The notes beneath the pieces are model-generated. The model was not told the DNA's origin. It did not search any database and saw nothing but the letters and a program-made list of their open reading frames with translations. This document shows, piece by piece, positions 17,512 to 52,800 of a DNA stretch of 64,000 nucleotides; within the stretch, counting starts at the first letter, position 1, and the number at the start of each line of letters is the position of its first letter. The stretch lies in NCBI RefSeq assembly GCF_964355755.1, contig NC_092672.1, forward strand, positions 13,144,001 to 13,208,000, in the 5' to 3' direction. A program made the translations under genes and the position numbers. This stretch comes from Antedon mediterranea. Taxonomy: Eukaryota > Animalia > Echinodermata.

Positions 17512-17569
<58 letters not shown>

Positions 17570-26500: not shown

Positions 26501-29500
26501 CAACGGTGGAATATGCGATCACATTACCGGCTTGTGTATCTGCGCGGCTGGGTTCGAAGGTGTTGATTGTTCAAAAGGTAATGTTTACATGCAATTTGTT
26601 TTACATTTTTATGTAAAATACATAAATCCTACAATTTAATTTTGTGCAAATAACGTCACTGATTGCTGTCTATCTATTGTACAGTTGACATGGTACCGTT
26701 TTGGACCCCATAAACAGTAACTACATGTGTTGTGTGGTATGTGTAGGCCTACTGTGTAGGCTTTATGCCTACTAGCAGTGGTACTTGTATGGAAGCTAAA
26801 TATTATGGTTATCATTCCTTTGATATTTGCCATATGAGAACCATTATCATTTAAATATTGAATTATTTTGCCTTGTATTTATATACCATCTATTTACTTT
26901 CAGCAAATCGGCTTAGAACAGTTATCAAGGAATAAATGAACAGTGATAAAGACCGTTTTTAGAAGTTTGGATGTAATAATAATAATAATAATAATAATAA
27001 TATTTTTATAGCGCACATACCACTCCAGAGTGCTCAAGGCGCGTGTATTTCTGTATAAATCGCATGTTTTATTACTCAACCGAGGCTTTGTATTTCAGGT
27101 TGTGAATCGTCGAACTGGGGAAGAGAGTGTTCTATAAATTCTGTAACAGGACACATTGGAAAGACGTTTTGCCCTCCACGTCCACTCAGTTGCTCTTGCT
27201 ATGCTGGGTACACTGGACATGGATGTGATCAAGGTAGTGAAACGTATTAGATATCGTTATGTCGTGAGGTAATTTCCCGATTGATCGTAATCAAAACGGT
27301 ACTGGGTTTGGTCTACTAGCGTTCCTGCTCCCAACCAGTACATTCATTCATAGAAGCCTTAATGAAGTGAGCCTACCTGGTGGTGGCCATAGAACGGTCC
27401 CGAGATAACGACTATACTTCGGCTTTATGTTATGTATTTAATAAATTTGTTATATCAATTAATTAAATTATCGTAGATTGCATATTATGCGATAAATATT
27501 ATTTAATAAATTTTTGATATATTATTATTATTATAATATTAATAAAAAGATATTTGTTAGTATAAATTTTAAAATATAGATATAAGGAAGAAAAACAAAG
27601 AGATTATGGAGCGGCTGTACCAGAATATACAACACTAAGTATTGTAAAGTTAATATATTAACAATTTAGGCGATCTTGTCAAAGGTCAAGCGCCTTCAGC
27701 CTGCCGCGTTTCGATATTAAATATTGAACTTGAATAGGTTTGTATCTCAAAAATGTATAATTCAAACTACTGGAGTAAATAAACCAAAGCGTATAAACTG
27801 ACACTCTTGTCTTAAGTTAAAATAAATAATAAATAAAAATAACTTTTGAATTATGCATAGAATGTATACTGGGAATGTATGGTCCGGACTGCGTATTTGT
27901 GTGTCATTGTCCGACGAATGTGTGCGATAGACACAAAGGTTGTGCCGAGGATTCTGTGTGTCATTTGGGTTATGCAGGAAAGACATGTCTAGGTGAGTGT
28001 AACATCAGTCAACGATCGTTACTTTTTTATCTATACAAATGCATTTATGATTGTTAATATCAAACAATTAAACTTGTTTAATATTTTACAAATCAGAACA
28101 CCTCTCCTGTCCACCTGGTATGTTCGGTGAATTTTGTCAATATACTTGTCATTGTGAGAGAGAGAAAACAGACACAATAGGAGGCTGTGACAAACATATT
28201 GGAGAATGTTTAAATTACGCCAGCTGTGCTAGTGGATGGGGTGGGTCTGATTGTCAAATAGGTAAATTTTATATTCAAGAAATTGTAAACGCTTTTTTTT
28301 ATCATCAACAAAAGGCAAATAAGTATTGCTCATAATAAATACATTGTTATATATTATTTACTCACTAACCTTTAACAACATTGGAGAGGGTTAAGATTTA
28401 AACCATTCAGACTTATCATTATCAGCTTTGCCAATTCTCAAACGTAACCCAACTACAAGTGTTACAGAAAACAGTATAACTATAAGCTGGGAACGATGGA
28501 CGAGTAGTGTTGACTACGGAACCGGACCCGTCACAAAATACCAAGTAATTTATCGGACACCACCGAACTCTGGATTTCCTTTTATATTATTGAGCGAAGT
28601 AAATGTGGACGATTTAATGCGAGTGAACATTGATGATTTGGAAACAAGAACTAACTATGAAATAAGAATTATTTTATATAGGCAGAGTGAAGGAGAGAAT
28701 TATACATCAGTTGGTTCAAGTCAAATAGTAATTACATCAGGAGAAGGTAAGAAAGCTATACGTAACGTTAAAGTTGAATTTGCAAGATAGATATATTTTA
28801 TTACCATTTTTTTTTTAAGTCATATTACCACGGAGAGTAATATATTTTGGTTATTTTCAGACAAAATCATGGATTTTACATTTTTTTGTGGCACACCACG
28901 AGTTGACGTTGATGATACTACGATGTCTACGTTTATTGGCGGATATAGTGGCAGTGATCATAAAACAAGTGATATACAGATCGAAAAAATTGTCACTGAA
29001 AATGAAGAAGATTTCTTCGGTCGTGCAATAACATGGAATGATGGATCAAAAATAGAAGGAATCATATTGGGAAATGAAACCATGTTTCCAGCTGGAACTC
29101 GTGTCCAAATTTCAACTCAACTCACCTACTATGCATTACGTGTGTATATTGACTCTGCCAGTGGCGTTAATAAACTGGGAGCATTTTACGCAAAAGCTAA
29201 TAAATATTTAGGAACGAGTAGGCATATATCTAGCGACATTGTATCAATCGTCTTTAGTAAACATGGTAAGTAATTGAACGATAACAGAATTGAATTATTA
29301 TGACGTAGTATGTCTATTTGACCGATTTTATGTTCCTTATGTTGTTGTGAAATGATTCCTTGTGTTGCATTGCACAGCCACGAATAAAGTGGTTGTTGGG
29401 ACACTTCACATTAGCGACCATACAACATTAACAATCTTCATGAAGAATAACAACATTCTCTGGATGTATACAAAGATAAGAATATATGAAGAATGCAAAA

Positions 29501-32500
29501 AGACCAAATGAGTTTTAATTTATATCTATATTTATTTATTATCATCATTATACCGCGTATTCGCCGGGGTTTTATAATTATTTTTATTAGGCCTAATATT
29601 TTCTTTTATTACGAAATATTCTTATAAAATATGGTTATTATTTAGATTTTACTTTGTGATACTGTTCAGTCATTACTTAATGTTAATTATAATCTTTTAG
29701 CATCAGTAACGTCTGTTAGAAGAACTTGGACAACCGGTACAGGAGAACGCGTAATGATGGACATGGTTGCTGACAACTCGACGGATAAATGGTGGCGCCA
29801 CAACGGCATTACTCTTAACGAATGGAACAACAGTCTTTCTATCAAAATTGATGTAGTAAGAAAACAAGATGCTGGAATATACGAATGCTTACCTACAGAA
29901 TATTGGGAGAATGGGAATAAAGGAATTACAAATTTAATTGTTAGAGGTAAAACGAATTCTTTACTTTAAACAATGTGATGCCTAACGACTTGTAATAATT
30001 GATTTTAAAGTCGTGATACTTTATTTTCACACCAGACTGTCCACTTCGTAAATGGGGACCACCTGATTGTTTACGGAACTGTCCAACTTGTTACAATGGC
30101 GGAGTTTGTGATGACGTAACAGGATCATGTGTCTGTACCGTCGGTTTTCGTGGTATCAACTGTGAAACAGGTCTGTGAAGTTTAAATATTAGTAATTTTC
30201 TGTATAAATCCATAAGAATAATTATCGTGAGGTAATTTCCCGATTGATCGTAATCAAAACGGTACTGGGTATGGTCTACTAGTTTTTCTGCTCCCAACCA
30301 GTACATCCATTCATAGAAGCTTTGATGAAGTAAGCCTACCTGGTGGTAACCATAGAACGGTTCCGAGATAACGACTATACTTCGGCTTTATTAATTAAAT
30401 TCCGCCATCGCTGTTTGACCCGTAGTTCCCGACATCAATGAAAGAAAAGCAGTAGTCAGCATCGACCAGTGCTAGTAGCACAACTGAGTGTGTCGACTTA
30501 TAGTTATAAAACAATGACCCCGATCTATCTGGAGCTACAATCTGTACATGTTTGCCGTCTATTGCTCCAATGCAATTTGGGAAATTCCATTTCGAATTAA
30601 ACTCCTCCGCGATTTGCTTTCAATCGCTACGTGATGGAATAGCCATGTAAGTGTTTTTTAAATTATCCCAAATCGCCTGGCAGACTTCTGGAATAATTTT
30701 ACATATAGTCGACTTCCCAACACGATATGCAAAATACATCGTCGGATATGAATCACCCGTAGCAAGATACCTAAAACAAGACATAAAAACAAGTTTCAAA
30801 ATTACTCCAATGTAAACGGCAGTTAGGCTATTTAATATTACTAATTTGGCCTATAAAATATTATTTCAAAAAGCCTCATTTACGATGTAAAAATCTCTTC
30901 GTAAGACGTTCTACTAAGTTCATGCGTATTCATGAACTTTGGTAGAGTTAAATACTAAAACTGTATTATATTAAATTATTTAATAATTATTATGTTGGTG
31001 AAAATGATAGGCCCTAATGCCCGTAATTGCCTATAATCATATACAAGACCTACTACTAAACAATGGCCTATTGAAGTTTGGTGACAACTAAGTAGACGAA
31101 TATAATTTAAATTAATAAACCTCGGAGCATTACCGTACCTTAAACAGATGGATAAACGTTCTTCTGCTGAGATACTCTCTCTGAATCTTGTGTCCCGTTT
31201 TGTAATATCTTTAATTAAACTGACAAGATGACCGTATTGGTGAGGCGTCATTCTAAAATAATTGAAGAATTCGTCTTCATTGGTCGCCAGATTACGTTTT
31301 ACCAACGTTTCAAATTGACCAAATTTCTTTCTTTCTGAACAGACCTCGTTCACCCATTTTCTTTTCCTTCTTTTGGCTAAAATTATAGCGGAAAGAATAA
31401 TTTCGTCCTCACTACCATCCGATGACCATCCAGAAACGGCTGCCATTTTAACGTTTGCCCGTTCTCACGGAATACGTCACAAAACGGAACAGGTGTGAAT
31501 GTTTAAAACGGAACGGTGAACGGGCGCGTCACGTTGAAAGAAACGGCGCCGTCTTCCGTTCCGCGAAACGGAGCAGGTGTGAATGCCCCTTAAGTATGTA
31601 CATTTATACTAGTCACCGGTGTACTTTCAAACATGGAGTAAAGAATAAGAGGAGGCACAACTCGGCCTAGCTATCCAGTTAATCCAATTAGTATCACGCT
31701 GTGCGGTAGTGCTTAAGCATAGGGTAATAAACTTCCCATAACGATCCTTTGAAGAACATCCTGTTTACCCGTGCAGCTCGCTGCAGAGTCGGCTCTGATT
31801 ACGTAACACCCTAATTAAGGAAGAAGCCAGGCATGACATCGGTGACAAAAAAAGTAAACAGAGGCTGCGCAGTAGTTTCTAATACATCATAGTGAAGCAT
31901 GACCTTTGTGCAGTTGTTCATTGTTCTTTGAGCTTTTTTCTCGAAAAAACCGTTTAAAAATCGAGTAAATTTTCACGGAGATATCGCAGTTTTTATACCA
32001 GCTAACAAATTAATCATATTTTTTATCAAGCCATAGACGTATCATTTGGTAAATCGAAATTTTACCGTTTAAACAACTTTTTAATTTACGAACCCTAGTG
32101 CATTTTGTAGCATATTAAAGACTCCAACTTATTTTAAAATCACATTTTAGTGCGCGCAAATGCGCGCATGAAAAAAATTATATAATTTGTTCTCATGAAT
32201 ATTCAAAAATATACGTATAGTAGAATTCCAACGACACAATTTCTTATTTTTATTACTGTATATGACATTTAATTTATGTTTCAGTCTATATTATGACTGT
32301 TTAGCAAAACTAACATTCTTCTATTTTAGTCTGATATTGTATAATTAAATTATTTATGATATTAATATCATAAAATATATGATTTTTACGATCACATACT
32401 TAGAGTTCAGTGAACTTGTAGGACTTAAATTATATATCGTTTAACGATTTGTGGCTACACATAGGCCTAGTAGTTCGTAATATATTATTATTTAATAAAT

Positions 32501-35500
32501 AGCCTAAATAAGGATAATATTTAATCCCATAATGATGGACATATTTAGTGCATACCGTAACCGGTAGGCCTAATAGGTTCAGGCATAGGCGCGCCTATAG
32601 TAACAATAAACAATATCAATAATAATAATAGGTTTTTTTTATGTAGGTCTATATTAATATATTAATAATTGTAATAAGGTTAGAAAACAAATAGTAGTAA
32701 TATTTTATTAAAGAAGAAATCAATCAATTAGTTTTAGTTTTCGGTTGGTCGTTATTATAATATTATATAATATGGTATAAAATGGTACGGTACTACGAGA
32801 ATATTCGTTTAGTATCAACCCGTAACAACAACTACAAATGATATGTGTTGGTTAAAAATTCAATTACAAATATAGTCTATGCTCTTTTGTAATTATAAGC
32901 CATTGTATAAAAGGATTATGTACAGTTCGGTACATAGCGGTTAATCGTAAAATTAAAAAATCGGACATACGAACAATAGATCGCCAACATTATTCGTACC
33001 CTTTTGCTGTATTGCGTACGTCGATCACGACTGATGCGGCTGTAAACTTCGCCTGGAAAGTAACTAGTACAGTACACATTCTGGTCCCTGGATGGAACAT
33101 GATATCACACGTAAACCGCAATGGAGCAGGTCCAATGTTAAACAATTCGTACAAAGGGGAACCGCCAGACAAGTGCGTACCTAATCATTGTTTATTAGAT
33201 CGCTGGCAATAATGCATGCAAAGTGCAATTGCTCTCCGCTCCACCAAGCAACGTACAGTACTAAAAAAAATGGAACGTCGTGGTTTTTCTAGGCGCTGAA
33301 GTTATACGAAGTGAACGCGAATGATTTTTACTGTATATTATATTCCCCGACGAAAAGTACTCGCGTTTCCCAGACGGGGAAGAGGGGAGGGGGGGGGGGG
33401 GGGGGGAGACGACGAGGGAATACAGCCCCCGTAACCCCCCGCTGGCACCACCACTGGTCCTTATTAAACCCATTTATTCATCATGATTCATGATAAGTTG
33501 TCTGGAGAAATTACCAACATTTAGTACACAGTAAACCATATAAATATAATTCCTTTATTGGTGCCGTATAAAACTCGTATTATTAATTTATTAATAAAAG
33601 ATATCCAGTAGAATATATATATAGCGCTGCTTTTTAATAAAAATTAATAAACAAGGTCGGAATACAAGTTCAGTAGGTCTACAAACAGTATATAGTACAC
33701 CTTTCACGCTTGAACGCACATCGCCTAGCAAGAGTATTGTGACGTCCTAATACGCATGTGTACTAACACCAAAATTGACCGCGGGCAGTAAACATTGTAC
33801 TCTTTGCTAATTGGGTTACGTAACGGCAGTGTTTAGCACCTCCTTAAATACTCATTACAAGCATAGCCTTAAGCAAGCGGTAAACACGATGAACTGACTG
33901 AACTATTCAAGTTGTGCCTCCTCTTATTCTTTACTCCATGTTTCAAATAAAACAATCAAATCATCAAAATGTTTATCTTTTATTAATATTAAGACGACGT
34001 ATCGCCGACTTCAGAAACAATAACCCCGTTCAAGCATGATTCAAGCAATCCATCACTACATAACTAAGAACCAGATACCATTTAGTATTATAGAGTAGTA
34101 GCCTATATTTAGGAAATGGTTAACCTGTCTTATTTTTTCCATTAAATGTTATTCACAATATAGCATGTGGTTCACAATTTTTTGGAAGGAATTGTGATAT
34201 GCATTGTTCAACAAAGAGTGTTGAATCGTGTATGGGCAACATGATGTGTCCACCATCACCACAGGGATGTTCTTGCACTGATGGATATACTGGTCTAGAC
34301 TGTAATCAAGGTATGATACGTGAAAAAGATGACCTAAACAATATCATTATGACACAGCTTATGTTCCTGTTTATTGCTCAACACAATATTATAGGCCTTT
34401 AGCGAAAATAAAATAACAGTTTAATTATTTTAAACATAATTCTGTATTAATATACATTAGCACACATTTGATTATAACAGGATTAATTTACATGTACTTA
34501 TTGTGTATATAAGTTATATAATGTGCATTTTGGTGGTATCAGTTGTCGTTTTAAGGAATGTGATATTATCCATTGTGTATTTCGCTTTGTTTATCGAAGT
34601 CATCTTAATATTATTATGCGTATGTTCGTGAAGAATACTATGCATTCCTTAGTATGATAGCGATGATCCAAACTTGTATTGGTTTGGCGGTTGTTTAATG
34701 TGTATTTGCCAAATAAAACACCCTTCAGATCAGCAAAAAATACAGAGCTGGTATAAAATTACTTTAAGTAAATAAAATTATTAAGTCGAAACCAGTTTCG
34801 TTATTATAAATATTATTATTATAAAGTGGTACATTTTTGTTAAAACAATCTTTAATTTTTTATCAATTTATTTAGGTATATACTTACATATAAAAATACA
34901 AAAGAATATATAATTTAAGAGTATGCGTTAGTTAATGTATTCAATCTACACTTAATCTATCTTATTTATGCTTCTAGATACAAAATTACCGATATATTTA
35001 TGTGATAGTTTTTATTGTTTCCAATACTTTTGTTTTGGTCCTGTTATATTCTGTTATCTTTTAATTATTGTTATATTATTTATGCAAGTATTTTGAAATT
35101 AAATAAATTAAAATTATTAATGTTATATATAAATGCAATTTGCAGAATGTTCTTCTGGAATGTATGGGTCTGATTGTCAGCAGAAATGCCAGTGTGACGT
35201 TAGTCTGTGTGATCGAAAGGTTGGATGTTATGAACCATGTTACGAAGGATATACTGGACCTCAATGCCAAGGTAATACACTTATCGAAGAAGGGAACATT
35301 CCATATTTATCTGTCGAGTACGGTCCTATTTCCCAAAAAACATTGGATAATGTTTATTTATCAAAAATATATGGTTTTAAATTGATTTAAACTAGAATAA
35401 ATGTCTCTATGATGACTTTTAAAAGTTATTTTAGTAGATGTTGTGCGTTTCATAGTTATATACCAATTGCCCTTCTTGCCTTCTACCATTAAAAATGTAA

Positions 35501-38500
35501 ATTTGACTTTTTTCAGTATTAGTGCATGATCGTACTTGCTCCAATGGTCACTTCGGTGCCTTATGTAACTATCCTTGTCATTGCCAACACTCATCAAATT
35601 GTCATCGTAATGGAAGCTGTGATAATGGATGTGCTGCCGAATGGACAGGGGCCGACTGCAGTATTGGTATGTTTTTGTTCTAATATTAGTTTTAGGCAGA
35701 AGAATAATGTGCCACCTCGACGAATAAACAATAGTAAGGGTAGGTTTGCGATACACCATGTGTTTCCTAAAGGAAATATAGTATTGAGAATGCCTATTTC
35801 ACCATTTTGAAGAGTTTTTTGTGATATTTAATGCAGTAGTACCTGAATTGATGATGTATTACCAATTAGCTTAATCAACTTTTACTATGTGATAACAATG
35901 TTAAGTCTTCAAATAGAGACAGATAAACAGAGTAGGTTTACCTACTGCTATACAGTGTTCATAATTATTTACCTTTCCGTAAAGGGAATATTCCTATATT
36001 AAAATAATCAAGTCCATCAAGTGTGTGTAAATTAATATAGCTCTGCCGTATATGACGAAATTGAACGTGACTGATATACAAGCAACTAGTATAGAAGTGT
36101 CTCATTTGTGGGTATTTGGTGAAGACTTTGGAACAGGACCCGCTACTGCTTATACATTATGTTACCGCAGCACCATCGATTGGCTTTGTCGGAAAACAAT
36201 ACAAAGTCTGTCAACAATCAATAGTTTAATACCAAACACAACACTTGAAGTAAAGGTTCAAGTTTTCAAAAGGATTGATTATACTGACATTGGAGGTCCT
36301 ATGATAACTGTTACAAGAATCAGAACTATTTGTCTCGGTAAGTTCTAAACTTGATCAATTACTTTAATTTGTCTAGTTTTGATTATAGTTTAAAAATAAA
36401 AATAAACTCTATCCAACTCGCAACAAAACGTATTTATTCTCAGCATTATAATCTCACTTCCTTTAAATATCTTTTTAAAAAATTCAGTTCTCACCCTTTT
36501 GGTGACGACAATATTGTCATTAAAACTGAATGTGGTAGAATAATAATTGACAATTTTATATACAATACTGATTTATTCATAATTTTATCTTTTTTTATTC
36601 ATTTTGATTTTTCATTTTCATTGTAAAAACCTGTACAACCAATAATGGAAGTAGAATTACATGTACAATATATAATATATATATTATATTGGTTGAACAT
36701 AACAGTTACGCATAATATGACAAGGAGTATATCATCTATATATAAATTATGGTTAATTCTGACATAGGCGAGCACAATGCAAAAACTTCGGTACAAATCT
36801 CCGCCTTGGATACCTACCTTATCTATCTGAGATGTACCGCGAAACGTAGATTTGATAACATTAGTGTTCACGGCGACGCTATTGTTCCATATTTCTATCT
36901 TGGGAAGATATTATAAAGAGTTTTTTAACACAATTTATGATTTCAACATTAGATTTTCATCTCAATTTCAATTCTTCCCGGTCAAAGTAATTTCCGGGTT
37001 TAAGATAAGTTCACCTTGCAGCAACCTGGTTTCAAATATTTTCTCTCTTTTATACACAAGGGAGCAGTTAAAATAATAGATTTGACCCTAAAGGTGACTG
37101 GAAACAGGCACTTTGCATCAATCAATACAGTGTCCCTTTGGAAGACGAAAAAAAAATCAGTTATAGGCCATTAATCATAGCCATTTCAGTTTTTGTTTAT
37201 TTTAAAACATACCGCGGCGCGTTTGTGAAGGTACAGTAGTTAAATAATAGGAATTATCTATATATAAATTTACGTAAGGGCAAAATTCGGTAAATCGCGC
37301 GTTATTTCTAGAATGTTTACTCGATGGTATATAAAGTTAGTTCGTACTTTCGGTACTGATTTTAACCACTTGATGTAACCCTGTTTACTAATTAAATTGA
37401 GTTCGATAATTAGTTATTGACGATTAAAACGAATTTAGGTTCAACGATTTGCCCCAAATAGGGGTGTTTTTCGATCGTGGTATACACTGTCGAATGGATG
37501 TCCGTCTTGAAAAATACCCGCAGACGATAATACGAGGATGCTTCGCATTTTCCTATCTCCTCCTACGATAATTGTTTTTAATGGCTGAAAACCGGTTGAA
37601 CAGCTCGAGTACAGCATCATAATGTTGAAGACAGGCCGATTTTCTTTAAAAAATACTATTTTGATAGATTTAATATACGTTTATACAAATGTATTGATTT
37701 GCGATGAATGGAACATTCCAATCTCTGTTCCTCAAGTGTCTATTCCCTCAGGCGTCGTAAAGGCAAGTGCTGTATACTCATAACAGAAATTCGATACATT
37801 TTTTTTTTCAATCTGTGCTGCAGTGGTTGGATATACATTTTTCATCCTGCTGCTCTAGCCCGCTACGTCACACGAGATGACTCATTCATTAGATGAAATC
37901 AAGCAGCTTTATAGTACTACACTTTGACATTTTTGTTAAAATGGAAACTCCATTATAATTTATTGGTACCACCTGTTGAATCCAAAAACGGCTGAGAAAA
38001 GAGTCTAATGACAAATCCCAAAGCCTTCTGGTATTTATGAGTCCCATGATATAATTCGCTGTCAGATAATCATTGAATTATTATCAAAACAGTCCATTGA
38101 AGTTTTTGTTTGTAATAGGATACTTGAAGTATCTAGGCGTGATGAAGTGACCCCCAGACTTGACCTTAGCAATAACAATAAGCGAGCAGCGTTTTTTGTA
38201 AGAAATATTCTTGTTTTAAAACGGATAATGAGCTAGAGTTTTCACTCGCCGTATATTATGTACAAATCTTTATTATTGCAATTAAACCACCCACATCATC
38301 ACCCTTCTCTCACTGGCATGAGTAGCGTTGTAAATCCAGTAGAGGATAGGCCTACAGTACATCACATGCCGCCCTAAACTCAGAAAAACTTTGGTGGGTA
38401 GGGTAGGAACCAACTTAAGTATGAATTGGCTCTTAGAAACAATTGAAAACCATTAGGCCTACTTATTAAGTTGAGTTAGATAATTTAATATTTATTGACG

Positions 38501-40842
38501 ATTAAATCGAATTTATGATTTTCCCCGAATAGAGGTGGTTTTCACAAATTGTTTTACATTATATAAACATATACACGTCGTAGTGATGTATCGTTACATG
38601 TACTGTACTATTTCAATCGACTTGGACGGTGATAGTTTCAACAAAGTATTACATTGCAATGTTTTACTGTGTTTAGTGGTATATTATTTGTAAAACATGA
38701 AAACAGTTAATATTTTGTTACTAAATAGATAAAGAATATATTTAAAAATTGTTCCTCTTTGCACCCATCCTCTTCCCCCATCCCTCAACCCTAATGTTAC
38801 ATACAAAACACAAATTAAGTTTGTTTAAATTTGACTTAAACAATTGGTCTCATTTTGTGACAAGTTTCTCTTTCGGAAGTAATTCCCAGGGTGCTAATTT
38901 TAGTTGAGTACATAAATCACAGTGTCTATTTATTCGTTCCTGTAAACGACATGTATTTGTCCTGCGGTACGTACATTTGAAATCGCAGTTTTTTAACGCT
39001 GAAATTATTATGTATTCGAGAACCATATGTGGGCACGACCTAGATGGTACGCGAGCGAAGCGAGCGTACCATCTAGTACTGCAAATTAATAAAGATCAAA
39101 TTAAATATACGCCATATAGTATTATAAAATTACATAGGGAGATTTGATGATAAGACATTTTTCGAATGAAATCGCGATAGCTGAGTTTTATTGAGTAAGC
39201 TTGCAGGAATAACTGTAGGCTATCTTCCTGTGTCCTGTTAGGACCGAGATGTCTGCCCATGTTGCAAGCCGTACCATAATGTCTTCTTTCTTGGGCCCAC
39301 TCTGTCACGGCAGTTAGTTTCAAAAGATGATTAAATTAAATAATGTATTAATAATTATTAGGATGGTATTCATTTGAATAAACGCCTCTCCAATAAAACA
39401 TCACTTTGAATAATAAACCCCCCCCCCCCCCCCAACCCAACTATCTAATAAACGTCCATCCACATATTTATAACAACACAATTATACGGTACTATTTTTA
39501 GTAGAATTCACCGCACTGTTATCTACTATTTACCAAGCATTTGTTATTCTTTTTTAGCACTTTTCATATCTATTAGAGGATTTCATTTGATTATAAATGT
39601 TACCATATTATTAAAACTACAAAATTTAACATATATCCCTCGAATAAGCACCTCCCTCAAATGACCTCCGCCTCCCCAAAGGGCCCTACCAAACAATAAA
39701 AACTGTACTTTAAAATGTTATTAATCATCTAAAACACTGTGAAACAAAATAGTTTAGTTTTACGAATGTCAAGCATTTTCAATATGGTAACTGACAGAAA
39801 ACGTAGAACATTATCATTCCGAAAACCATCGTCTACACTTCCTAGAGGGGGAGCGAGTGAAGCGAGCTCACCCTCTAGTAACTGTAATTTTAGTACAATT
39901 TAATACAAAATCAAATATAGACTAGAATATAATAGAGCACTGGAAGGTAAGATTTACTAAGATGAATTATCAATTACAGAACCTCTTGATTCGCCAAAGA
40001 TAGAAACATTGTCAACCATCAAGAAAACTATTGTAGTAAAATGGAAGGTGGGAATTTTCAATCATTTTTTTAATTACCTTATTGTTGTTGTAACTTAATA
40101 ATACATCCATTTTTGGAGCTAATGTATTAGCCAATGCCAGTCACAAGTATATAGCCAGTATCGAATTTTGATCGATCAACTTTTAAATGTTAATAATAAT
40201 GTAAACGACATTTTACTGTAGTTAAGTTTACTTTTTTCGAAGGCTGTAGATTTCAATCCTACACGGCTGCAGTGTGACAGTTTAATACATTATGACGTTG
40301 GTTACCAAACTGGGATTAACGACGCTTGGGAAACATTTCAAGTTAATTATGATCAGACCGAAGCAACTATTAACTTTTTAGATTATGACATGGTATATCA
40401 AGTTAGAGTTAGGGCAGTGAATACAGCAGGAATTACAGGACCATGGAGTGAAATATGGACAATTAAAATTCCAGAAAATAAAACAGGTCAGGTTTCGTTC
40501 TTTATAATTGACAATAACTCAGCATTAGTGCGCTCACCGGTAAAAAATTAAAATGCCAGGACATTTCAAACAATAGTAAAGGATATTTTGAAATAGTTGT
40601 GTTTGTTACTCTTGTTTCGATACTTTTTTCCATCTTCTAACTCTCATCTACTAGGCCTAAGTAAACGGATTGCTTATACATTGAATTGCACTCATCTACA
40701 AACGAATTATTTATACATTTGCTTTCATCTACTAAATTATTTAATTGTTTATACATTTTCTTAATTAGGATCAAAGATAGCTATATATGTGCTCTCATCA
40801 GTTGTCGCATTGTTAGTTATTTCTACCGTTGTGGTTCTTTGA
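23525..40842 (+). CDS. Tie-like Ig/EGF/FN3 receptor, copy 2; predicted tail-less form (TGA immediately after TM), ~1155 aa
   Basis: Exons: 23525-23591 (signal peptide MLNAKEYLSLAILTFGASMTSA), 24773-25141, 25655-25909, 26446-26577, 27099-27233, 27861-27992, 28097-28261, 28426-28746, 28861-29265, 29701-29946, 30036-30170, 34164-34310, 35146-35271, 35517-35666, 36041-36337, 39980-40047, 40243-40486, 40769-40843. The TM exon reads gtt ctt TGA g|gt (TGA 40840-40842), where copy 1 reads gtt ctt aac aaa ttg ag|gt. Confidence 0.82.
23965..24269. mobile_element. Kolobok-like MITE in intron 1 (copy 2)
   Basis: TTAA|AGATGTATTGTG ... GGACAATACATCT|TTAA; an inverted relative of 5333-5700. Confidence 0.75.
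26976..27043 (-). mobile_element. 68-bp 3' end of an L2-type LINE/SINE with a (TTA)n tail
   Basis: (AAT)n + ATTTTTATAGCGCAC...CTCAAGGCGC flanked by a TGTA duplication. Absent at the same site in copies 1 and 3. Confidence 0.65.
27262..27426. repeat. ~165-bp dispersed structured repeat
   Basis: TCGTGAGGTAATTTCCCGA...GACTATACTTCGGCTTT. The same element with the same ends is at 30225-30389 (a different intron) and 47501-47667. Confidence 0.8.
30225..30389. repeat. ~165-bp dispersed structured repeat (second insertion site)
   Basis: High identity to 27262-27426. Confidence 0.8.
30398..31590 (-). mobile_element. PIF/Harbinger transposon remnant with HARBI1-like DDE transposase pseudogene
   Basis: Minus-strand exon 31446-31139 reads FFNYFRMT...FRESISAEERLSICLR. 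After a GT-AG intron, exon 30770-~30398 reads YLATGDSY...WNFPNCIGAIDGKHV...YNYKSTHSVVLLALVDA...DVGNYGSNSDGG with an internal TGA. Terminus AGGGGCATTCACAC next to TAA. The 3' half is missing. Confidence 0.9.
31632..33940. mobile_element. P-superfamily-like non-autonomous DNA transposon (copy 2 intron 11)
   Basis: Perfect ~30-bp TIR CATGGAGTAAAGAATAAGAGGAGGCACAAC and a 7-bp TSD TTTCAAA on both sides. No recognisable transposase. Confidence 0.8.
36735..39878 (+). mobile_element. Non-autonomous Helitron (copy 2 intron 15)
   Basis: a|TCTATATATA ... CTAGAGGGGGAGCGAGTGAAGCGAGCTCACCCTCTAG|t, with no TSD. Empty site ggagtatatc-t-taactgtaa in copies 1 (~17610) and 3 (~57930). Confidence 0.85.
37257..39076 (+). 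mobile_element. Second Helitron nested inside 36735-39878
   Basis: a|TCTATATATAAATT ... CTAGATGGTACGCGAGCGAAGCGAGCGTACCATCTAG|t. Confidence 0.7.
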
Positions 40843-41005
40843 GGTATGTGTCGAATGACCCTGGCTAGACCTATATTGTAATTAATTGTATTCATTTGAA
40901 TAATCAACTGAAACTTACAACCTTTCATCTCTCATCAGTAACGCCATAACATTATTTAAACCTTTATCATTGAGTAATAACTATGCTTACTAATTCCTAT
41001 TTCAG

Positions 41006-41363
41006 ACGAATGAAACACCAGGTTAACGGATATAAAAAGGATTATGGGAACGTTCAGATTAACACAATATCAAAGCCGTCACAAAATTACCAAGACGACA
41101 GTTACACTTCACTGCAAAAAGAAGCGCGTTGTTTGGCAGAATCTCCGAACAATACCTACGAACAAGAAACCCCAAAAGACGAGATATTTTATTTGAACGT
41201 TACCAATTTATCTCAAAATAAACAAACAGAAGACGCCATAGCCGATACTGATACAACGTATGATGAAATCTGTGTTGGCGGCATAGAGAAGGAAAGAGGA
41301 ACTGATGCACGAAAAAAACCTCTGGTGCCTAAGAAACCAACAATTACGAATGACAAAGAATAA
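41006..41363 (+). other. Cytoplasmic-tail exon of copy 2; intact sequence but downstream of the premature stop, so predicted 3' UTR
   Basis: Near-identical to 18768-19125 and 59095-59452, with the acceptor tttcag conserved. It is untranslated if the TGA at 40840 is real. Confidence 0.75.
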
Positions 41364-43814: not shown

Positions 43815-46800
43815 ATGTTGAACGCTAAAGAGTATCTAAGTCTGGCAATTCTGACATTTGGTGCGTCAATGATGTCTGCAGGTTAGTAACCATCTTTTTG
43901 CAAAACGTTATATATTTTTTTATTTTGAAAAATATTTGTGTCCTATTTAAATTGCATATCGTTTATTTTAGTTTGCCACAAATCAATAAGTTTTACTTAG
44001 TCTCAAGAGTAGTAGGTTACACTATTATTATAATTATTGTTGGAGAGACACACCTTACCGGTGACAGCGTTTGTTTAATGCTTTTGTCTTTCCTCGGCCT
44101 CGTGTCTTGTTTTTCATATATATATATATATATTTTTATGTTTTTTTTGTAATTATTATTTATGAATAAAATAAATAAATAATAAATAAATAAAATGGGC
44201 ACTGTGATACATCTACATTGAAAATCAAATCATATTGGAAATTAATTAATTACCTTAAAGATGTATTGTGTCTCTGAAAAATAAACCATTTTTTAATCCA
44301 CTCTGACAAAAAAAATGGATCGAAACAAATTGTATTTACATGAAAAAAATGTAATTGAATAATAATTTAAAGCAAAAAATGGTAAAATTGGCTGCCAGCC
44401 AATGGGGTTTTGGTTGAGTTTAACCATTTATTTTGTAATTTTATAAGTTTTATATCGTTTTTAATCCCCATAAGCAATTAACTTTATTAAAACTACAAAA
44501 TAATGTATTCAAAGTCTGATTTAAACAATCTTCATCTTTCATGTTTTGGAGGACAATACATCTTTAATCAATTTAAACAGAAGCTAGTATCCTACTCCGC
44601 CTTCTCATTAGATGTACGTACTAATATTTCGTACACCAATAAATTTGCTGTAATGTTTATAAACTTTAGTATTTTTTAACATTATTTGTATATTTCTTGC
44701 ATAATTTTACCTGTAATTGTGTTCTTTAATTCCATGGAAGACTAAAATAATATACAATTGTATGTATTAACAATGCCGTTTCACGGTTTATGTTTTTTTT
44801 ATATTTGTATTGACTTGGTTTAATTTGATCCAATTGCCTTTAAAATAAAATTGTACACAGTAATAGAGATCTGTTATTCCTGGAGTACGGTGATTACTTA
44901 AGCACAATGGCAGTATACAAATAAAAAAAGTGTTTTTGAAGAGTTGACGTGATGTTATTGTTTTTTTTTTTGTGATGGGAAGTTTTACTAAAATTTGTAC
45001 CATATTTTGTTTTTAGCCAATACCACAATTGTATCTATACGTAAATAAGATACAATATTATATATTACAGATGTTTTGGATTTCACAATAGTGGTTAATA
45101 GTGCCGTGGTTGATGCAAACGATGAGGTTAATTTTGGTGGATACCTACATAAATCAGAAGAATCAACATCAATATTTCTAGGTCAAAATATCCTTACAGA
45201 AACTGATTCTAATGAAAATGAAGTGGAATGGACGGATGGTGATAACCCGCCGATAGTCTTAGATAATTCATTCTTTCCAACTGGAACAAGTTTAGGCACA
45301 GAAACGACTTCAGAATACCAGGCTTTGATAATGACAATGCCCAACAGTAGTGGTATTGCAAAAGTAGGATCGTTTTACGGAAAAGCAATGGCTCAAAACA
45401 AAGAAGAATTTATACCTTTTGTTATTCTAAATTCAAATGGTAGTTTTCTATTTTTGTTTTTGGTTTCATTTTCTATAGACTGATCGTCTGAAATGGTATG
45501 GGGAAAGGAAAAGTCATCGGCATCAATAACAATACAATTATAAACACGTCTATATTTCATATGCCTTATAGTATAAGATCATTTTAAAGACCAAAATAAT
45601 ATTCAGTCTTGTGTAAAGTCTATACTTCCATGCTTAAACATTGACCCGACACGATTGACATGATCTTTTTTTTTTCTTTACGCCTTCCGTCGGACAATAT
45701 TAACGATGGCGACAGGTACATGAACTCATTTAGACATAAACTGCATACATCTCACGCCGCGTGTATTGTTTTTCGTTCTTAATCTCTATTTTCCATTCTT
45801 ATTACTTGTAATGTCTTTCTTCTATTTATTTTGTTGTTACATTATTGTTGTTATGGTATGCGTAATGTAACTGTAACAAAAATGAAACTAAAACATTAAC
45901 AACTTAATATAATTAATATAATAATGAATTTTATTCAACACTGTTTTCCGCATAGCAACTGTTGTTCCTAAGTATCGATCTTTAACTGCAAGCATCGGTG
46001 ATGATTTGACAGGCTTAATAATGGTAACCAGCTATGGGACAGGTAGTTACAGGTGGCGACATAATGGCAGAAATGTTATAACCTCATACAATGGTAAAAG
46101 TAGCCTTGAATTGACCAACGTTCGTATGGCAGATGCGGGTGTATATGAGTGTTACTTACATGAAACAGGAAGAGACGGAAGGCATGCCATTATTCAAATA
46201 AATGTTAAAGGTATGCATGATCTTATAAACTTTAAAAGCAAATGATTGTTTAGAGTGTAGCATTGTAGTGTTCAACTATACTAACTTGTTGAAGGTTTGG
46301 TTTAATAAAAAGTTTGAATCTAACAATGTAATGCAACTTATGAATAAGCGACTAATAATTATGGTGTTAATATGTTATGTACGAAAATTACGCAATATCT
46401 GGAATATACAATATGAAAATAACTATAATTAAAACGGAATATGACAATTTTTAAAATAGCTGAAAACACATGAGGCCTGATACTGATTTTTGTAAAAATC
46501 AACAATTAAGTATTCTGCATGTCAAAAGCGACTTTAAAGAGAAGGGAATCAAAGGGGAACAAAGGAAATGATAAAATTGCATGTAGAAGAATATGTTGGC
46601 TGATTTGAGCGTTTGGCCAATAGAAGAACTTTGAAGCCATGTGATAACTTGTGTAATCAATAAACGATAGACGTTTGATTATAATCTGATAAAGCCTGAA
46701 TTGTGTAAAAGAAAGACTGAACCATAGTTATTATAAGGATTATCTTATATCAAATTTTTCGAATAGGATGTTCGAAAAGGAAGTGGGGAACAGATTGTGA

Positions 46801-49800
46801 TTTAAATTGTCCTGTATGTTACAACGGTGGAATATGCGATCACATTACCGGCTTGTGTATCTGCGCGGCTGGGTTCGAAGGTGTTGATTGTTCAAAAGGT
46901 AAGGTTTACATGCAATTTGTTTTACATTTTTATGTAAAGTACATAAATGATTTTGTCCAAATAACGTCACTGATTGCTGTCTATCTATTGTACAGTTGAC
47001 ATGGTACCGTTTTGGACCCCATAAACAGTAACTACATGTGTTGTGTGGTATGTGTAGGCCTACTGTGTAGGCTTTATGCCTACTAGCAGTGGTACTTGTA
47101 TGGAAGCTAAATATTATGGTTATCATTCCTTTGATATTTGCCATATGAGAACCATTATCATTTTAATATTTAATCATTTTGCTTTGTATTTATATACCAT
47201 CTATTTACTTTCAACAAATCGGCTTAGAACAGTTATCAAGGAATAAATGAACAGTGATAAACACCGTTTTTAGAAGTTTGGATGTATTTCTGTATAAGTC
47301 GCATGTTTTATTACTCAACCGAGGCTTTGTATTTCAGGTTGTGAATCGTCGAACTGGGGAAGAGAGTGTTCTATAAATTCTGTAACAGGACACATTGGAA
47401 AGACGTTTTGCCCTCCACGTCCACTCAGTTGCTCTTGTTATGCTGGGTACACTGGACATGGATGTGATCAAGGTAGTGAAACGTATTAGATATCGTTATG
47501 TCGTGAGGTAATTTCCCGATTGATCGTAATCAAAACGGTACACTGGGTTTGGTCTACTAGCGTTCCTGCTCCCAACCAGTACATCCATTCATAGAAGCCT
47601 TAATGAAGTAAGCCTACCTGGTGGTGGCCATAGAACGGTCCCGAGATAACGACTATACTTCGGCTTTAGTCGATAGAAGATTGAATAAATTGTTAGAGAT
47701 AGAGTATACGATGTTATGATTATGTGTAGATATGTGATTTGTTCTTTTTATTCAAATGATGTTATGTATTTAATAAATTTGTTATAACAATTAATTAAAT
47801 TATCATAGATTTCATATTATTATTATTATTAATAAATTTTTGATATATTATTATTATTATAATATTAATAAAAAGATATTTGTTAAGTTTAAATTTTAAA
47901 ATATAGATATAAGGAAGAAAAACAAAGAGATTATGGAGCGGCTGTACCAGAATATACAACACTAAGTATTGTAAAGTTAATATATTAAAAATTTAGGCGA
48001 TCTTGTCAAAGGTCAAGCGCCTTAAGCCTGCCGCGTTTCGATATTCAATATTGAACTTGAATAGGTTTGTATCTCAAAAATGTATAATTCAAACTACTGT
48101 AGTAAATAAACCAAAGCGTATAAACTGACACTCTTGTCTTAAGTTGAAATAAATAATAAATATAAATAACTTTTTAATTATGCATAGAATGTATACTGGG
48201 AATGTATGGTCCGGACTGCGCATGTGTTTGTCATTGTCCGACGAATGTGTGCGATAGGCATAAAGGATGTGCTGAAGATTCTGAGTGTTATCCGGGATAT
48301 GCAGGAAAGACATGTCTAGGTGAGTGTAACATCAGTCAACGATCGTTACTTTTTTATCTATACAAATGCATTTATGATTGTTAATATCAAACAATTAAAC
48401 TTGTTTAATATTTTACAAATCAGAACACCTCTCCTGTCCACCTGGTATGTTCGGTGAATTTTGTCAATATACTTGTCATTGTGAGAGTAAGAAAACAGAC
48501 ACAATAGGAGGCTGTGACAAACATACTGGAGAATGTTTAAATGACGTCAGCTGTGCTAGTGGATGGGCTGGGTCTGATTGTCAAATAGGTGAATTAGTTT
48601 ATATTCAATAAATCGTATAAGATTTTTTTATTTGTAGTTCGATCATCAATTAAAACAAATAAGCAATGCTCATATGCATACATTTTAATATATTATTTAC
48701 TCACTAAATATTAATAGTATAAATAAATTTGATCCGAATTTCATTTTTTTTCTTACACGATTTTATCGTTGAACAGTCGTCGTTATGTAACACAATATTC
48801 TTTAAAACATTCAGACTTTATCATTATCAGCTTTGCCAATTCTCAAACGTAACCCAACTACAAGTGTTACCGAAAACAGTATAACTATAAGCTGGGAACC
48901 ATGGACGAGTAGTATTGACTACGGAACCGGACCCGTCACAAAATACCAAGTAATCTATCGGACACCACCGAACTCTGGATTTCCTTTTATATTATGGCGG
49001 GAAGTAAATGTGGACGATTTAATGCGAGTGGACATTGATGATTTAGAACCAAGAACTAACTATGAAATAAGAATTATTTTACATAGGCAGATTGATGGAG
49101 AGAATTATACATCAATTGGTTCAAGTAAAATAGTTGTTACCTCAGGAGAAGGTAAGAAAGATATACTAACTCATTTGCAAGATATATTTTATTACCGTTT
49201 TTATACAAGTGATATTATAGTCAAGTCAAGTCAAGTATAATCTTTATTCGTTCCCACAAGGAGAAAATTACATTGCTCGTCTTCAAATACATCATAATTA
49301 CAATATATAAAATAACATGACAATACAACAATACCAATATTAAAAACTCACAACAAGAACATATTATTACATATTATTTCATGGTGCTCATCTGGATGAA
49401 TGTCGCTGATGTCTCCTGATACCTGTGGGCAGAAAGGAGAAAAGATATCGGTTTGTCTCCGCAGCCGCGGATCGCAATCTTCCACTGCGAGCACTCCTGA
49501 GACAGCCTAAATCGGAATTCACAGGATGACTTTCATCCCTCAACACCATCCCAAAAAGCCTGTCCAGGTTCTCGCAATAAACTTAATCCACCGACTGCTG
49601 ACACAAACCAGACATCCTCTCAACCCTTCTTACCACACGATCAATTCTACCCTTATCTCCCTCTGTAACATTTCCACCCCACCCTGCAATACAATATTTC
49701 CAAACCCCAACAATAATAGACTGATAGAATGTAATCAAAATATTATTATTTACACTGAACTTGTTTTATTACTACGGAGAGTAACATATTTTGGTTATTT

Positions 49801-52800
49801 TCAGACAAAATCATGGATTTTACATTTTATTGTGCCACACCACGAGTTGACGTTGATGATAATACGATGTCTACGTTTATTGGCGGATATAGTGGCAGTG
49901 ATCATCAAACAAGTGATATACAAATCGGAAAAATTGTAACTGAAATTGGCGAAGATTTTCTCGGTCGTGAAATAACATGGAACGATGGATCCAAAGTAGG
50001 AGTGATATTGGGCAATGAAACCATGTTTCCAGCTGGAACTCGTGTCCACCTCGCAACTCCGGAAAACTCCAATGCATTGCGTGTGTTTATTGACTCTGCC
50101 AGTGGCGTTAATAAACTGGGAGCATTTTACGCAAAAGCTAATAAATTACGAATGTGTAGTTATATATCTAGCGAAATTGTGTCAATCATCTTAAGTAAAC
50201 ATGGTAAGTTTTTGAAAAATCTTTCCACGGTAAGAGAATTGAATGATTATGACGTTGGTGGGACACGAGGTGCACATTAGCGACCATACTATAATTATTT
50301 ACATATTGTATATAATGATAGGCCTATATGAAAGAATGCAAAAGACCAACTGTGTTTTAATGTTTATCTATAGACCGACCATTTATTACCATCAATATAC
50401 CATTGAAAAAAAAGTGTATCCAGTCAAAACAATCATCAATTCAATTTTGGTCTTCATCAAATACAGCATGTTGAAGTTGTAATAATATAATTTAGAATTA
50501 TAATAAATTATTATTAATAGTTTCTAATACGGAATTTTATAGAATATGTTTATTGTTTAGATTTTACTTTGTCATACTGTTCAGTCATTAGTTAATGTTA
50601 ATTATAATCTTGTAGCATCAGTAACGTCTGTTAGAAGAACTTGGACAACAGGTACAGGAGAACGTGTAATGATGAACATGGTTGCTGACAACTCGACAGA
50701 TAAATGGTGGCGCCACAACGGCATTACTTTAAACGAATGGAACAACAGTCTTTTTATCAAATTAGATGTAGTAAGAAAACAAGATGCTGGAATATACGAA
50801 TGCTTACCTACAGAAAATTGGGAGAATGGGAATAAAGGAATTACAAACTTAATTGTCAGAGGTAAAATAATTGTTTACTTAAAATGTTCAAATGCTAACA
50901 GGCTTGTAATAAACAATCGATTATTACTTCAAAGAAGTGACATTTTATTTTCAGAGTGTCCTCTTCGTAAATGGGGACCACCTCATTGTTTACGGAACTG
51001 TCCAACTTGTTACAATGGCGGAGTTTGTGATGACGTAACAGGATCATGTGTCTGTACCGTTGGGTTTCGTGGTGTCAATTGTGAAATAGGTGTGTGTGTT
51101 ACCTTCTTTGTTCCTATAACTTATGTACAATTGTATACCGTATAAGATACAAAATATAAACACATATCAAGCCAAGTTTCCAATAATCAAATTTTTGTAT
51201 TTAAGACCCGGCAAGACATAGTTCAACTGATACTTCAACGGGTTTTATATTAATTCATGTTTTCAGATTGATCTCAAACCTGCTCAATAATAATTTCGAC
51301 ACTAAAACAAATTGTTGCACATTAACAATTCAATCAATTCACAGCACAGTTCTTGATCATTTGTGTACATGCCAAGTTGAACTTACGTTCTGTACATCCT
51401 AGGTCTACATTTAAATAATTACTAACAATAATTCATAAGTATCTACCTTATTATAGGCAAACCATGTACGGTACAATATTACGTAATACGATATTGTAAT
51501 TTCAAGAAAACCATATCCTGAAATATTATTTATAACTACATCATGAGATAGTTTTCTTTCTTTCCTAAAGGTGAATACTACTGTACATAACAAAGTATTT
51601 AAAAAAAAACCTCAAGAGAATGTAACATATATAACATAACAAGTATCAGTTAAGGTAGTAGTAAAATATTATGAAAAAAACTTATTTTTCATTACTTTTA
51701 TTTGAAATATAGCATGTGGTTCGGATACGTTTGGAAGACATTGCAGTATGTTTTGTTCAAGTAAGGATATCGAATCGTGTATGGGAAAGGTGATATGTCC
51801 GCCGTCACCACAGGGATGTTCGTGCACCGATGGATATACTGGTCCAGACTGTCTTGACGGTACGATACATCTAATATTTATTTTTACATAATATCAATTA
51901 TATTCAGGGCTTGGTTTCTGAGTTTATTTAAAATAAGTATTTCATTTTATTATGTCTTGGCCTCCATAAAAAAGTCATAAGTATATTTATATACTGTACT
52001 CACTAATTATATTATATATATATATATATACCAGTTGGTCGAAGTGACCATTGTTGTATTTTGTTGGAACCATCAACCAATCTTGCAGATGATAAATTAC
52101 AAGCCGGCACATTTGCTGTTTCGTCCACTAAGAGACTCCTCGATCAGATCATTTGGACAATGGATGACTTTGCATGATTGGAATCATCGTAGTGCTTATG
52201 AAAACTCTTCAGATTTTTTTGGAAATTTTTAATCAGGAGCTCAACAGTGCTTTTGAAGAGCATTTTCCTCACATTTTCACTAACAAGAGATTGAATGACA
52301 AGCCCTGGTTTACAACTAAATTAATAAAATTAATTTTGAAACGCCATGTGGCTTACCGAAATGGACAGGATATCCAGTAGAAAATCTTACGTTGTAATGT
52401 ACAGCAGGAAGTCAAACTAGCGAAGGCTTCGTTCTATGAAAAGTCTATTGCTCCCTTGAAAGGGAACAAACCTGGAAAATGGCACCGCAGTGTCCAGAAG
52501 CTCTGTAATATGAGAAAGAAATCAAGTCGTATTCCTGGCTCTGATGTTGACCCTATAAATACCGTTGAATGCATCAATAGCCATTTTGCACTTAATCAGC
52601 TTCCGGCTTTGAATATCAACAAGCTACCAGCCTTCCTCCCAGCAAGTGAACCACCAGTTATACATGAATGGGAAGTTCGTAAGGCTTTGAATGAATTGAA
52701 CTGTAAAAAATCAAGCCACCCATCAGACTTACCAATTAAAATAATTAAGGAATTTGCTATTGAACTTGCTAATTCGCTAACTAAATTATTTAATACCTGT

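What the first reader, a model, noticed from the sequence alone, without database searches (positions are those of the whole stretch)
40769..40843. Copy 2 has a 7-bp deletion putting a stop right after the TM: predicted tail-less decoy paralog
Copy 1 reads gtt ctt aac aaa ttg ag|gt and copy 3 reads gtt ctt gac aaa ttg ag|gt, but copy 2 reads gtt ctt TGA g|gt. All 17 upstream exons of copy 2 are in frame and its other indels are multiples of 3 (+6 in exon 9, -3 in exon 15). The stop is 1 nt before the last exon junction, so under the 50-55 nt rule it should escape NMD. The product ends in a hydrophobic stretch with no basic stop-transfer residues, so it could be weakly anchored, GPI-linked or shed. 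Copy 2 also has the most divergent ectodomain. This suggests a signalling/non-signalling receptor pair.
Basis: partly seen in the sequence, partly recalled or inferred. Interest (0 to 1): 0.8.

Follow-up and report, generated by a model that had tools for sequence, protein, structure and literature searches.

The report
Tail-less feather-star Tie-like receptor copy
One of several tandem copies of a Tie-like cell-surface receptor gene in a feather star has a 7-base deletion that puts a stop codon right after the membrane segment, so its protein would lack the likely inhibitory signalling tail, and this is most likely a recent mutation in a fast-changing gene array rather than an established decoy receptor.

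Summary
Observation confirmed. Copy 2's TM exon (40769-40843) is 75 nt against 82 in copies 1 and 3, with TGA at 40840-42. Exons 1-17 stay in frame, and NCBI's model ends at the same stop. The genes (Antedon mediterranea, by the source's protein name) encode kinase-less receptors with two Tie2-like heads and an ITIM/ITSM-bearing tail.

The decoy reading is unproven. The deletion is in 0 of 2 runs whose contigs span the site (these drop minor variants) and in 0 of 4 copies in same-genus assemblies. The silenced tail exon is still open and no more mutated than its intact sisters (4 vs 3 and 4 derived changes), so the stop is young. Copy 2 is not a special outlier: copies 1 and 3 are recent sisters, and its nearest relative over exons 10-15 keeps a full tail. 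No transcript of copy 2 was seen.

Best reading (0.5): a young tail-loss allele in a birth-and-death array, like KIR2DL4 9A. A selected CEACAM-style GPI or shed decoy stays plausible (about 0.28); another copy appears to have lost its ITIM and ITSM independently.

The parts
23525..41363 (+). Copy 2 gene, 19 exons: signal peptide; two Tie-like heads (Ig1-like, Ig, EGF x4, FN3); FN3; TM exon with stop; silenced tail exon
23525..23591 (+). Copy 2 exon 1, signal-peptide-like, phase-1 donor
   Evidence: same N-terminus in NCBI models P0013 and P0015
40769..40843 (+). Copy 2 exon 18 (TM), 75 nt; 7-nt deletion relative to all other copies examined
40840..40842 (+). Premature TGA created by the deletion, 1 nt before the last coding splice donor
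   Evidence: NCBI model P0011 ends here
41006..41363 (+). Copy 2 exon 19, former cytoplasmic tail, now predicted 3' UTR; still open in the ancestral frame, 4 derived substitutions (3 non-synonymous)
41184..41201 (+). ITIM-consensus codons (IFYLNV), retained but untranslated in copy 2
41253..41270 (+). ITSM-consensus codons (TTYDEI), retained but untranslated in copy 2
36734..39878 (.). About 3.1 kb found only in copy 2 intron 15 (3642 nt vs 523 and 492); lies between the divergent middle exons and the copy-1/3-like 3' end
54..19125 (+). Copy 1, exons 3-19 (exons 1-2 lie outside the window), intact; TM exon 18524-18605 (82 nt)
   Evidence: NCBI P0001 and P0014 match at 100%
43815..59452 (+). 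Copy 3, intact, 1276 aa; TM exon 58851-58932 (82 nt)
   Evidence: identical to NCBI P0013
61917..63551 (+). Copy 4 exons 1-2 (gene runs off the window)
   Evidence: matches NCBI P0002

Best explanation
Copy 2 carries a 7-base deletion that ends its reading frame at the membrane segment, and it is most likely a young, lineage-limited tail-loss allele in a birth-and-death array of Tie-like receptors that are predicted to signal through ITIM/ITSM motifs. Shown: the intact paralogues are type-I membrane proteins with two tandem Tie2-like heads, no kinase and a tail of about 120 aa carrying ITIM, ITSM and PxxP consensus motifs. Inferred from consensus only: they recruit SH2 phosphatases and act as inhibitory recognition receptors. 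Shown as mosaic divergence, mechanism inferred: the array expands and recombines by unequal crossing-over and gene conversion. Inferred: late on copy 2's branch, one of the lineage's frequent small deletions hit the end of the TM exon. Untested: if transcribed, the mRNA would likely escape exon-junction NMD and give a ligand-binding but non-signalling protein, weakly anchored or shed. On this reading that product is a tolerated by-product, sheltered by several intact copies, and not yet a selected decoy.
For: The deletion is in 0 of 2 informative runs and 0 of 4 copies in two same-genus assemblies. It is absent from copies 1 and 3 and from NCBI's two other TM-bearing models. The silenced tail is open, keeps all its tyrosines, and has 4 derived changes vs 3 and 4 in the intact copies; N:S is 3:1 vs 2:5, Fisher p=0.24. 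Tail change per site (1.1%) is below copy-2 non-coding change (3.1%, p=0.04), so the tail was constrained for most of this branch. Copy 2 has 5 other private indels in 1197 aligned non-coding sites nearby, so small deletions are common here. Copy number is labile: 2 per same-genus assembly vs at least 5 models or copies here. Copy 2's nearest ectodomain over exons 10-15 (P0012, 89.6%) keeps a full tail and shares the exon-15 deletion; 21 of 36 differences between copy 2 and copies 1/3 are shared with P0012 or P0003. No full-length NCBI model of copy 2 appears among the 8 cluster members. Precedents: KIR2DL4 9A, a segregating TM-exon frameshift that removes the ITIM (passages, 10.1101/2020.11.20.391649); the Alr cluster had 12 gene models classed as pseudogenes beside 18 bona fide and 11 putative genes (passages, 10.1101/2022.03.04.482883).
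Against: The only lesion in a 3.8-kb CDS falls exactly at the end of the TM segment, leaving ectodomain, signal peptide, all 18 introns and the upstream region intact (943 of 982 and 968 of 988 nt identical over 1 kb to copies 3 and 4). If all 4 tail changes post-date the stop (d=1.1%), neutral decay predicts 4.8-6.3 further disabling hits, P(0)=0.002-0.008; at d=0.2-0.5%, P(0)=0.06-0.42. NCBI model P0003 appears to have lost ITIM and ITSM independently (implied 103-nt frameshifting deletion). The read contigs collapse minor variants and cannot show absence. NCBI also splits intact copy 1 into two models, which weakens the missing-model argument.
Confidence: 0.5

Rival explanations
1. Selected decoy. 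The stop converts the TM exon of an ITIM receptor into a GPI signal or a weak anchor, as happened repeatedly in primate and pig CEACAMs. The result would be a non-signalling partner that binds the same ligand or microbe and spares or competes with the inhibitory copies.
For: The lesion's position preserves the whole ectodomain and a 21-aa hydrophobic end (mean Kyte-Doolittle 2.7). There are no further lesions in 3465 coding nt (P(0) as low as 0.002-0.11 if d is 0.5% or more). Ectodomain dN/dS is 0.46-0.51 against the sister copies. A second, apparently independent motif loss is seen in P0003. Exon 12 is hypervariable (dN 0.23-0.24). CEACAM GPI signals arose repeatedly from stops in ITIM-type TM exons (passages, PMC2832619; PMC13212111).
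Against: Not found in any other individual or species examined. No copy-2 transcript was seen. The only fair omega candidate is N at -27, followed by K and T, with 5 residues before the hydrophobic run (hand rules). The ectodomain dN/dS reflects time before the stop and is like that between intact copies (0.44). Skipping exon 18 would already give a soluble ectodomain from any copy, so a dedicated gene is not needed.
Confidence: 0.28
2. Copy 2 is already silent (a young unprocessed pseudogene), and the stop is simply its first visible lesion.
For: NCBI annotates only fragments of it (P0015, P0011). Large insertions lie in introns 11 and 15 and upstream. About 430 nt are missing about 1.4 kb upstream of the ATG relative to copies 3 and 4. 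The one spliced contig spanning the site is of the intact type.
Against: The proximal 1 kb upstream and all splice sites are intact. Intact copy 1 is also split by NCBI and also has large introns.
Confidence: 0.14
3. The 7-nt deletion is an assembly or consensus error.
For: It was not seen in the contigs of any run laid.
Against: It is a non-homopolymer 7-nt event, and it sits in a segment with 84 copy-2-private alignment columns, including other multi-base indels. This is what a real divergent copy looks like. The laid contigs also lack nearly all other copy-2-private alleles, as expected for another individual or for collapsed variants.
Confidence: 0.05
4. Alternative splicing restores a full-length receptor.
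For: One in-frame GT lies upstream of the stop, at 40812 (att|GTTAGT).
Against: It has a poor exon-side context and would leave only about 12 hydrophobic residues; the same site is present in the intact copies. The other in-frame GT (40848) lies after the stop.
Confidence: 0.03

Closest known systems
KIR2DL4 9A allele (human)
   Same: A small deletion at the end of the TM exon gives a premature stop and removes the ITIM tail, within a tandem, copy-variable receptor cluster; it segregates beside full-length alleles (passages, 10.1101/2020.11.20.391649).
   Different: Unrelated ectodomain. The 9A change is a 1-nt slip in a homopolymer at 44% frequency in that sample; here it is a 7-nt deletion of unknown frequency that leaves no cytoplasmic residues.
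GPI-anchored CEACAMs (human CEACAM5-8, pig CEACAM60)
   Same: A stop or small deletion in the TM exon of an ITIM/ITSM-type paralogue, within a gene-converting, birth-and-death family (passages, PMC2832619; PMC13212111).
   Different: Those are expressed and fixed across species, and the pig one was tested with phospholipase C. Copy 2 has no expression, population or GPI evidence, and it keeps its whole TM segment. Pig CEACAM62, with a stop near the TM end and no cDNA that could be cloned, is the nearer match in stop position.
Tie1/Tie2 (TEK) receptor tyrosine kinases
   Same: The Ig-EGF head is homologous to human Tie2 (E=7e-27; family profile E=6.4e-72).
   Different: No kinase; the head is duplicated in tandem (36% identity); there are four EGF-type exons per head; and it ends in a short Tyr-motif tail.
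Ambulacrarian Tie-ectodomain receptors with variable tails (NCBI models from Ptychodera, Glandiceps, Amphiura, Patiria)
   Same: 30-39% identity to each head; kinase-less members in Ptychodera end in SxYxxL tails.
   Different: None of the 7 relatives shows two full heads in the BLAST matches (one, P0005, repeats only the later part); two carry phosphatase domains and one a kinase; their tails show no significant similarity to this tail.
Hydractinia Alr gene complex
   Same: An invertebrate tandem cluster of Ig/FN3 single-pass receptors with ITIM/ITAM tails and many truncated members (passages, 10.1101/2022.03.04.482883).
   Different: Different ectodomain; no allorecognition role is known or tested here.

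Membership tests
Tie receptor tyrosine kinases | Ig-Ig-EGF head homologous to Tie2 | tested here: met
   (match from the end of Ig1 through the EGF repeats); the N-terminal part of Ig1 was not resolved (fold pLDDT 50)
Tie receptor tyrosine kinases | Cytoplasmic tyrosine kinase domain | tested here: not met
   The tail is about 120 aa with no Pfam family; the next gene copy begins 2.5 kb after the stop
Tie receptor tyrosine kinases | Angiopoietin binding | not testable with these tools
   none
ITIM/ITSM inhibitory receptors (intact copies) | [ILVS]xYxx[ILV] and TxYxx[VI] motifs in the tail, conserved | tested here: met
   IFYLNV and TTYDEI in copies 1 and 3 and P0012 and in 4 of 4 same-genus copies
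ITIM/ITSM inhibitory receptors (intact copies) | Phosphorylation-dependent SHP/SHIP recruitment and inhibition | not testable with these tools
   consensus only
Decoy receptor paralogues (CEACAM-like) | Intact ectodomain, signalling tail removed | tested here: met
Decoy receptor paralogues (CEACAM-like) | Expressed as spliced mRNA and protein | tested here: inconclusive
   The only spliced contig across the site is of the intact type; contigs drop minor variants
Decoy receptor paralogues (CEACAM-like) | Truncation shared across individuals or species, or ectodomain under selection after the stop | tested here: inconclusive
   0 of 2 informative runs and 0 of 4 same-genus copies; decay test ambiguous
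Decoy receptor paralogues (CEACAM-like) | Shares a ligand with the signalling paralogue | not testable with these tools
   ligand unknown
GPI-anchored proteins | Small-residue omega site, polar spacer, hydrophobic C-terminus without cytoplasmic residues | tested here: inconclusive
   Hydrophobic end present; best omega candidate N(-27)-K-T with a short spacer, by hand rules recalled from memory; no predictor was available

The most novel reading that the evidence does not exclude
The array is an echinoderm paired-receptor system built on a doubled Tie head. It would hold inhibitory ITIM/ITSM members (copies 1, 3 and 4), a newly born GPI-linked or shed decoy made by the same TM-exon-stop route as primate and pig CEACAMs (copy 2), and a member with an arginine in its TM that has lost both inhibitory motifs (P0003), the layout of vertebrate adaptor-coupled activating receptors. 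That would be convergent CEACAM/LILR-style immune receptor logic caught at birth in a crinoid.
Probability: 0.15. Interest if true: 0.7.

Novelty: new variant of a known kind. Interest (0 to 1): 0.36.

Why it matters
As a young truncation it is an ordinary event in a fast-evolving receptor array and matters little. The family around it is more interesting: kinase-less, double-headed Tie-like receptors with conserved ITIM/ITSM tails, hypervariable exons and copy number that differs between sister species. My searches (listings only) showed no paper on it. If copy 2 proved expressed, common and GPI-linked or shed, it would be an invertebrate parallel of the CEACAM1-to-CEA conversion and a testable case of a decoy arising in one mutational step.

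Tried and rejected
No own genome was held, so copies outside the window are known only from NCBI protein models. No RNA holder was listed as RNA on record; X5 and X11 show spliced joints. Only one laying of reads was answered (exons 17-19), so copy-2-specific middle exons were not tested for expression; X6 and X11 had no cover over the deletion. The ectodomains of the same-genus copies could not be fetched because the index was busy, so orthology of copy 2's ectodomain across species is open. The tail as query found no homologue among 51 candidates and no Pfam family; there was no significant similarity to relatives' tails. The exon-2 domain alone gave no PDB hit (best E=0.25). The AlphaFold model of the head was low confidence (pLDDT 50.3), so no fold search was run. 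Look-ups of earlier findings near the site, by words and by sequence were blank. Literature searches listed nothing on this family; PMC6494969 gave only a reference-list entry for sea urchin SpTie1/2. No supplements were read. I dropped an early idea that the P>L change in copy 2's tail destroys the PxxP motif: PLVP still fits it. Rejected: a dedicated divergent decoy ectodomain and frame rescue by another donor.

Full report
Observation. A self-comparison shows three full tandem copies and the start of a fourth, spaced 18-25 kb apart. I rebuilt the exons by hand and by mapping. Each gene has 19 exons: a signal-peptide exon, two repeats of (Ig1-like, Ig, four EGF-type exons, FN3), a split FN3, a TM exon and one tail exon. 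Copy 3 gives 1276 aa, identical to NCBI model P0013; the source names it as an uncharacterized protein of Antedon mediterranea, a feather star. In copy 2 all 18 introns are GT-AG, exon 9 is +6 and exon 15 is -3. Exon 18 is 75 nt instead of 82, so the frame ends at TGA 40840-42 after 1155 codons, 1 nt before the last coding donor. NCBI model P0011 ends at the same residue.

What the genes are. Exons match Pfam Ig, EGF and fn3 families (9 of 12 exons tested had such hits). The head is homologous to human Tie2 (E=7e-27; family profile E=6.4e-72) and occurs twice (36% identity over 519 columns). There is no kinase. The tail of the intact copies has one ITIM consensus (IFYLNV), one ITSM consensus (TTYDEI), no ITAM and a PPVP motif; the ITIM and ITSM are kept in 4 of 4 same-genus copies, one of which has two in-frame tail deletions. 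The 7 non-Antedon relatives among 9 hits come from a brittle star, acorn worms and a sea star. They carry a Tie head with a phosphatase, a kinase or a short tail. Inhibitory signalling through SH2 phosphatases is inferred from consensus motifs only.

Is the deletion real? It was not confirmed in raw reads. One laying was answered (exons 17-19, 4 of 18 listed runs). X1 and X5 (the same organism code, two samples) each have one contig across the site, and both carry the 7 nt. X6 and X11 do not cover it. X5's contig is spliced exon 17-18-19 and is about 95% identical in the tail, so an intact-type member is transcribed. These contigs drop minor variants, and nearly all other copy-2-private alleles are missing from them too, so they cannot refute the deletion. 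The event is not in a homopolymer and lies among 84 private alignment columns with other multi-base indels. I put assembly error at about 5%.

How old and how widespread? Two same-genus assemblies (B1, B2; B3 repeats B2's coordinates) have two TM-bearing copies each, and 4 of 4 have the 82-nt exon and an open tail. Polarised with these, copy 2's silenced tail has 4 derived substitutions against 3 and 4 in intact copies 1 and 3, with no indel. Three of the 4 are non-synonymous, against 2 of 7 in the intact copies (Fisher p=0.24). The tail has changed less per site (1.1%) than copy 2's non-coding DNA (37 of 1197 sites, 3.1%; p=0.04). So it was constrained for most of the branch, and the stop is late. 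Five other private indels lie in the same 1197 non-coding sites, so small deletions are common in this lineage.

Is the ectodomain kept on purpose? dN/dS over exons 3-17 is 0.51 and 0.46 for copy 2 against copies 1 and 3, and 0.44 between the intact copies. This mostly reflects time before the stop. A neutral-decay calculation gives P(no further lesion) of 0.002-0.008 if the stop is 1.1% old, 0.06-0.11 at 0.5% and 0.32-0.42 at 0.2%. The data do not fix the age well enough, so this test leans towards continued use but is inconclusive. Against a specialised decoy ectodomain: with two more NCBI models from the same contig, copy 2 is an ordinary member (84.4-89.6% identity) and copies 1 and 3 are recent sisters (94.3%). 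Its closest relative over exons 10-15, P0012, has a full tail and shares the exon-15 deletion. Copy 2 is also a mosaic: against copy 3, dS is 0.017 over exons 3-5, 0.18 over exons 9-15 and about 0.06 over exons 16-17 and 19, with a 3.1-kb insertion at the last boundary.

Predicted product. The C-terminus is 21 hydrophobic residues with no basic stop-transfer residues. By recalled hand rules, the only fair GPI omega site is N at -27, followed by K and T and a short spacer; no predictor could be run. The one in-frame upstream donor would leave about 12 hydrophobic residues, so splicing does not rescue the tail. Skipping exon 18 would give a soluble ectodomain from any copy. Escape from NMD follows from the vertebrate 50-55-nt rule (recalled; untested in crinoids) and assumes that exon 19 is last.

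Evidence in the decoy's favour. The single lesion falls in the few codons that leave the whole ectodomain and TM intact. NCBI model P0003 also lacks ITIM and ITSM: it ends in an out-of-frame reading of the ITSM region, implying a 103-nt deletion without GT-AG ends, and it has an arginine in its TM (DNA not seen; the model also lacks exons 2-6). CEACAM GPI signals arose repeatedly from stops in ITIM-type TM exons (passages, PMC2832619; PMC13212111). An earlier AI note from this scan reports another Tie-ectodomain cluster in this genome with phosphatase and ITAM tails; I did not test it and do not count it as support.

Comparison and verdict. The event works like KIR2DL4 9A (passages) and could become like a GPI-linked CEACAM. 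It is not a Tie kinase, and membership among decoy receptors is inconclusive. Truncated members are common in comparable invertebrate clusters such as Alr (12 pseudogene models beside 18 bona fide and 11 putative genes; passages). Odds: young tolerated tail loss 0.50, selected decoy 0.28, silent pseudogene 0.14, assembly error 0.05, splice rescue 0.03. The family did not appear in the listings of searches; the library lacks most subscription journals, and no supplements were read. Interest 0.36.

Noticed in passing
NCBI model P0003 (same contig, outside the window): A further copy whose tail ends out of frame (implied 103-nt deletion removing ITIM and ITSM), with an arginine inside the TM and exons 2-6 missing from the model. 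TM arginine plus loss of inhibitory motifs recalls adaptor-coupled activating receptors (recalled).
   Followed up: partly
window 23525-27233 vs 43815-47472; 28861-36337; 39980-41363: Copy 2 is a mosaic: near-identical to copy 3 in exons 1-5 (exons 2 and 4 show no codon differences), dS about 0.18 in exons 9-15 and about 0.06 in exons 16-19, which points to gene conversion or unequal crossing-over.
   Followed up: yes
window 34164-34310 (exon 12) and 28861-29265 (exon 9): Hypervariable exons of the second Tie head: exon 12 is 79% identical at the nucleotide level (dN 0.23-0.24) and differs among the five copies; a candidate ligand-specificity site.
   Followed up: partly
copy 3 aa 23-1030 (exons 2-15): The Tie head is duplicated in tandem (36% identity); the 7 relatives from other ambulacrarians do not show two full heads.
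   Followed up: partly
window 20680-21564 (-) and 53111-53911 (+): Open frames of 295 and 267 codons with reverse-transcriptase-like motifs (LINE-like, recalled), between copies 1 and 2 and in copy 3 intron 12.
   Followed up: no
window 30979-31464 (-): A 162-codon open frame in copy 2 intron 11 that resembles the start of a Harbinger-type transposase (recalled, not tested).
   Followed up: no
window 22080/22081: Copy 2 lacks about 430 nt present in copies 3 and 4, about 1.4 kb upstream of the ATG.
   Followed up: no
L006 (same-genus assembly B2): The tail exon has two in-frame deletions that keep ITIM and ITSM, and the intron after exon 17 appears about 200 nt shorter.
   Followed up: partly
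P0004, P0006, P0007, P0008, P0010: Tie-type heads joined to a phosphatase (Amphiura, Glandiceps), a kinase (Amphiura) or short SxYxxL tails (Ptychodera): a modular ambulacrarian family.
   Followed up: partly
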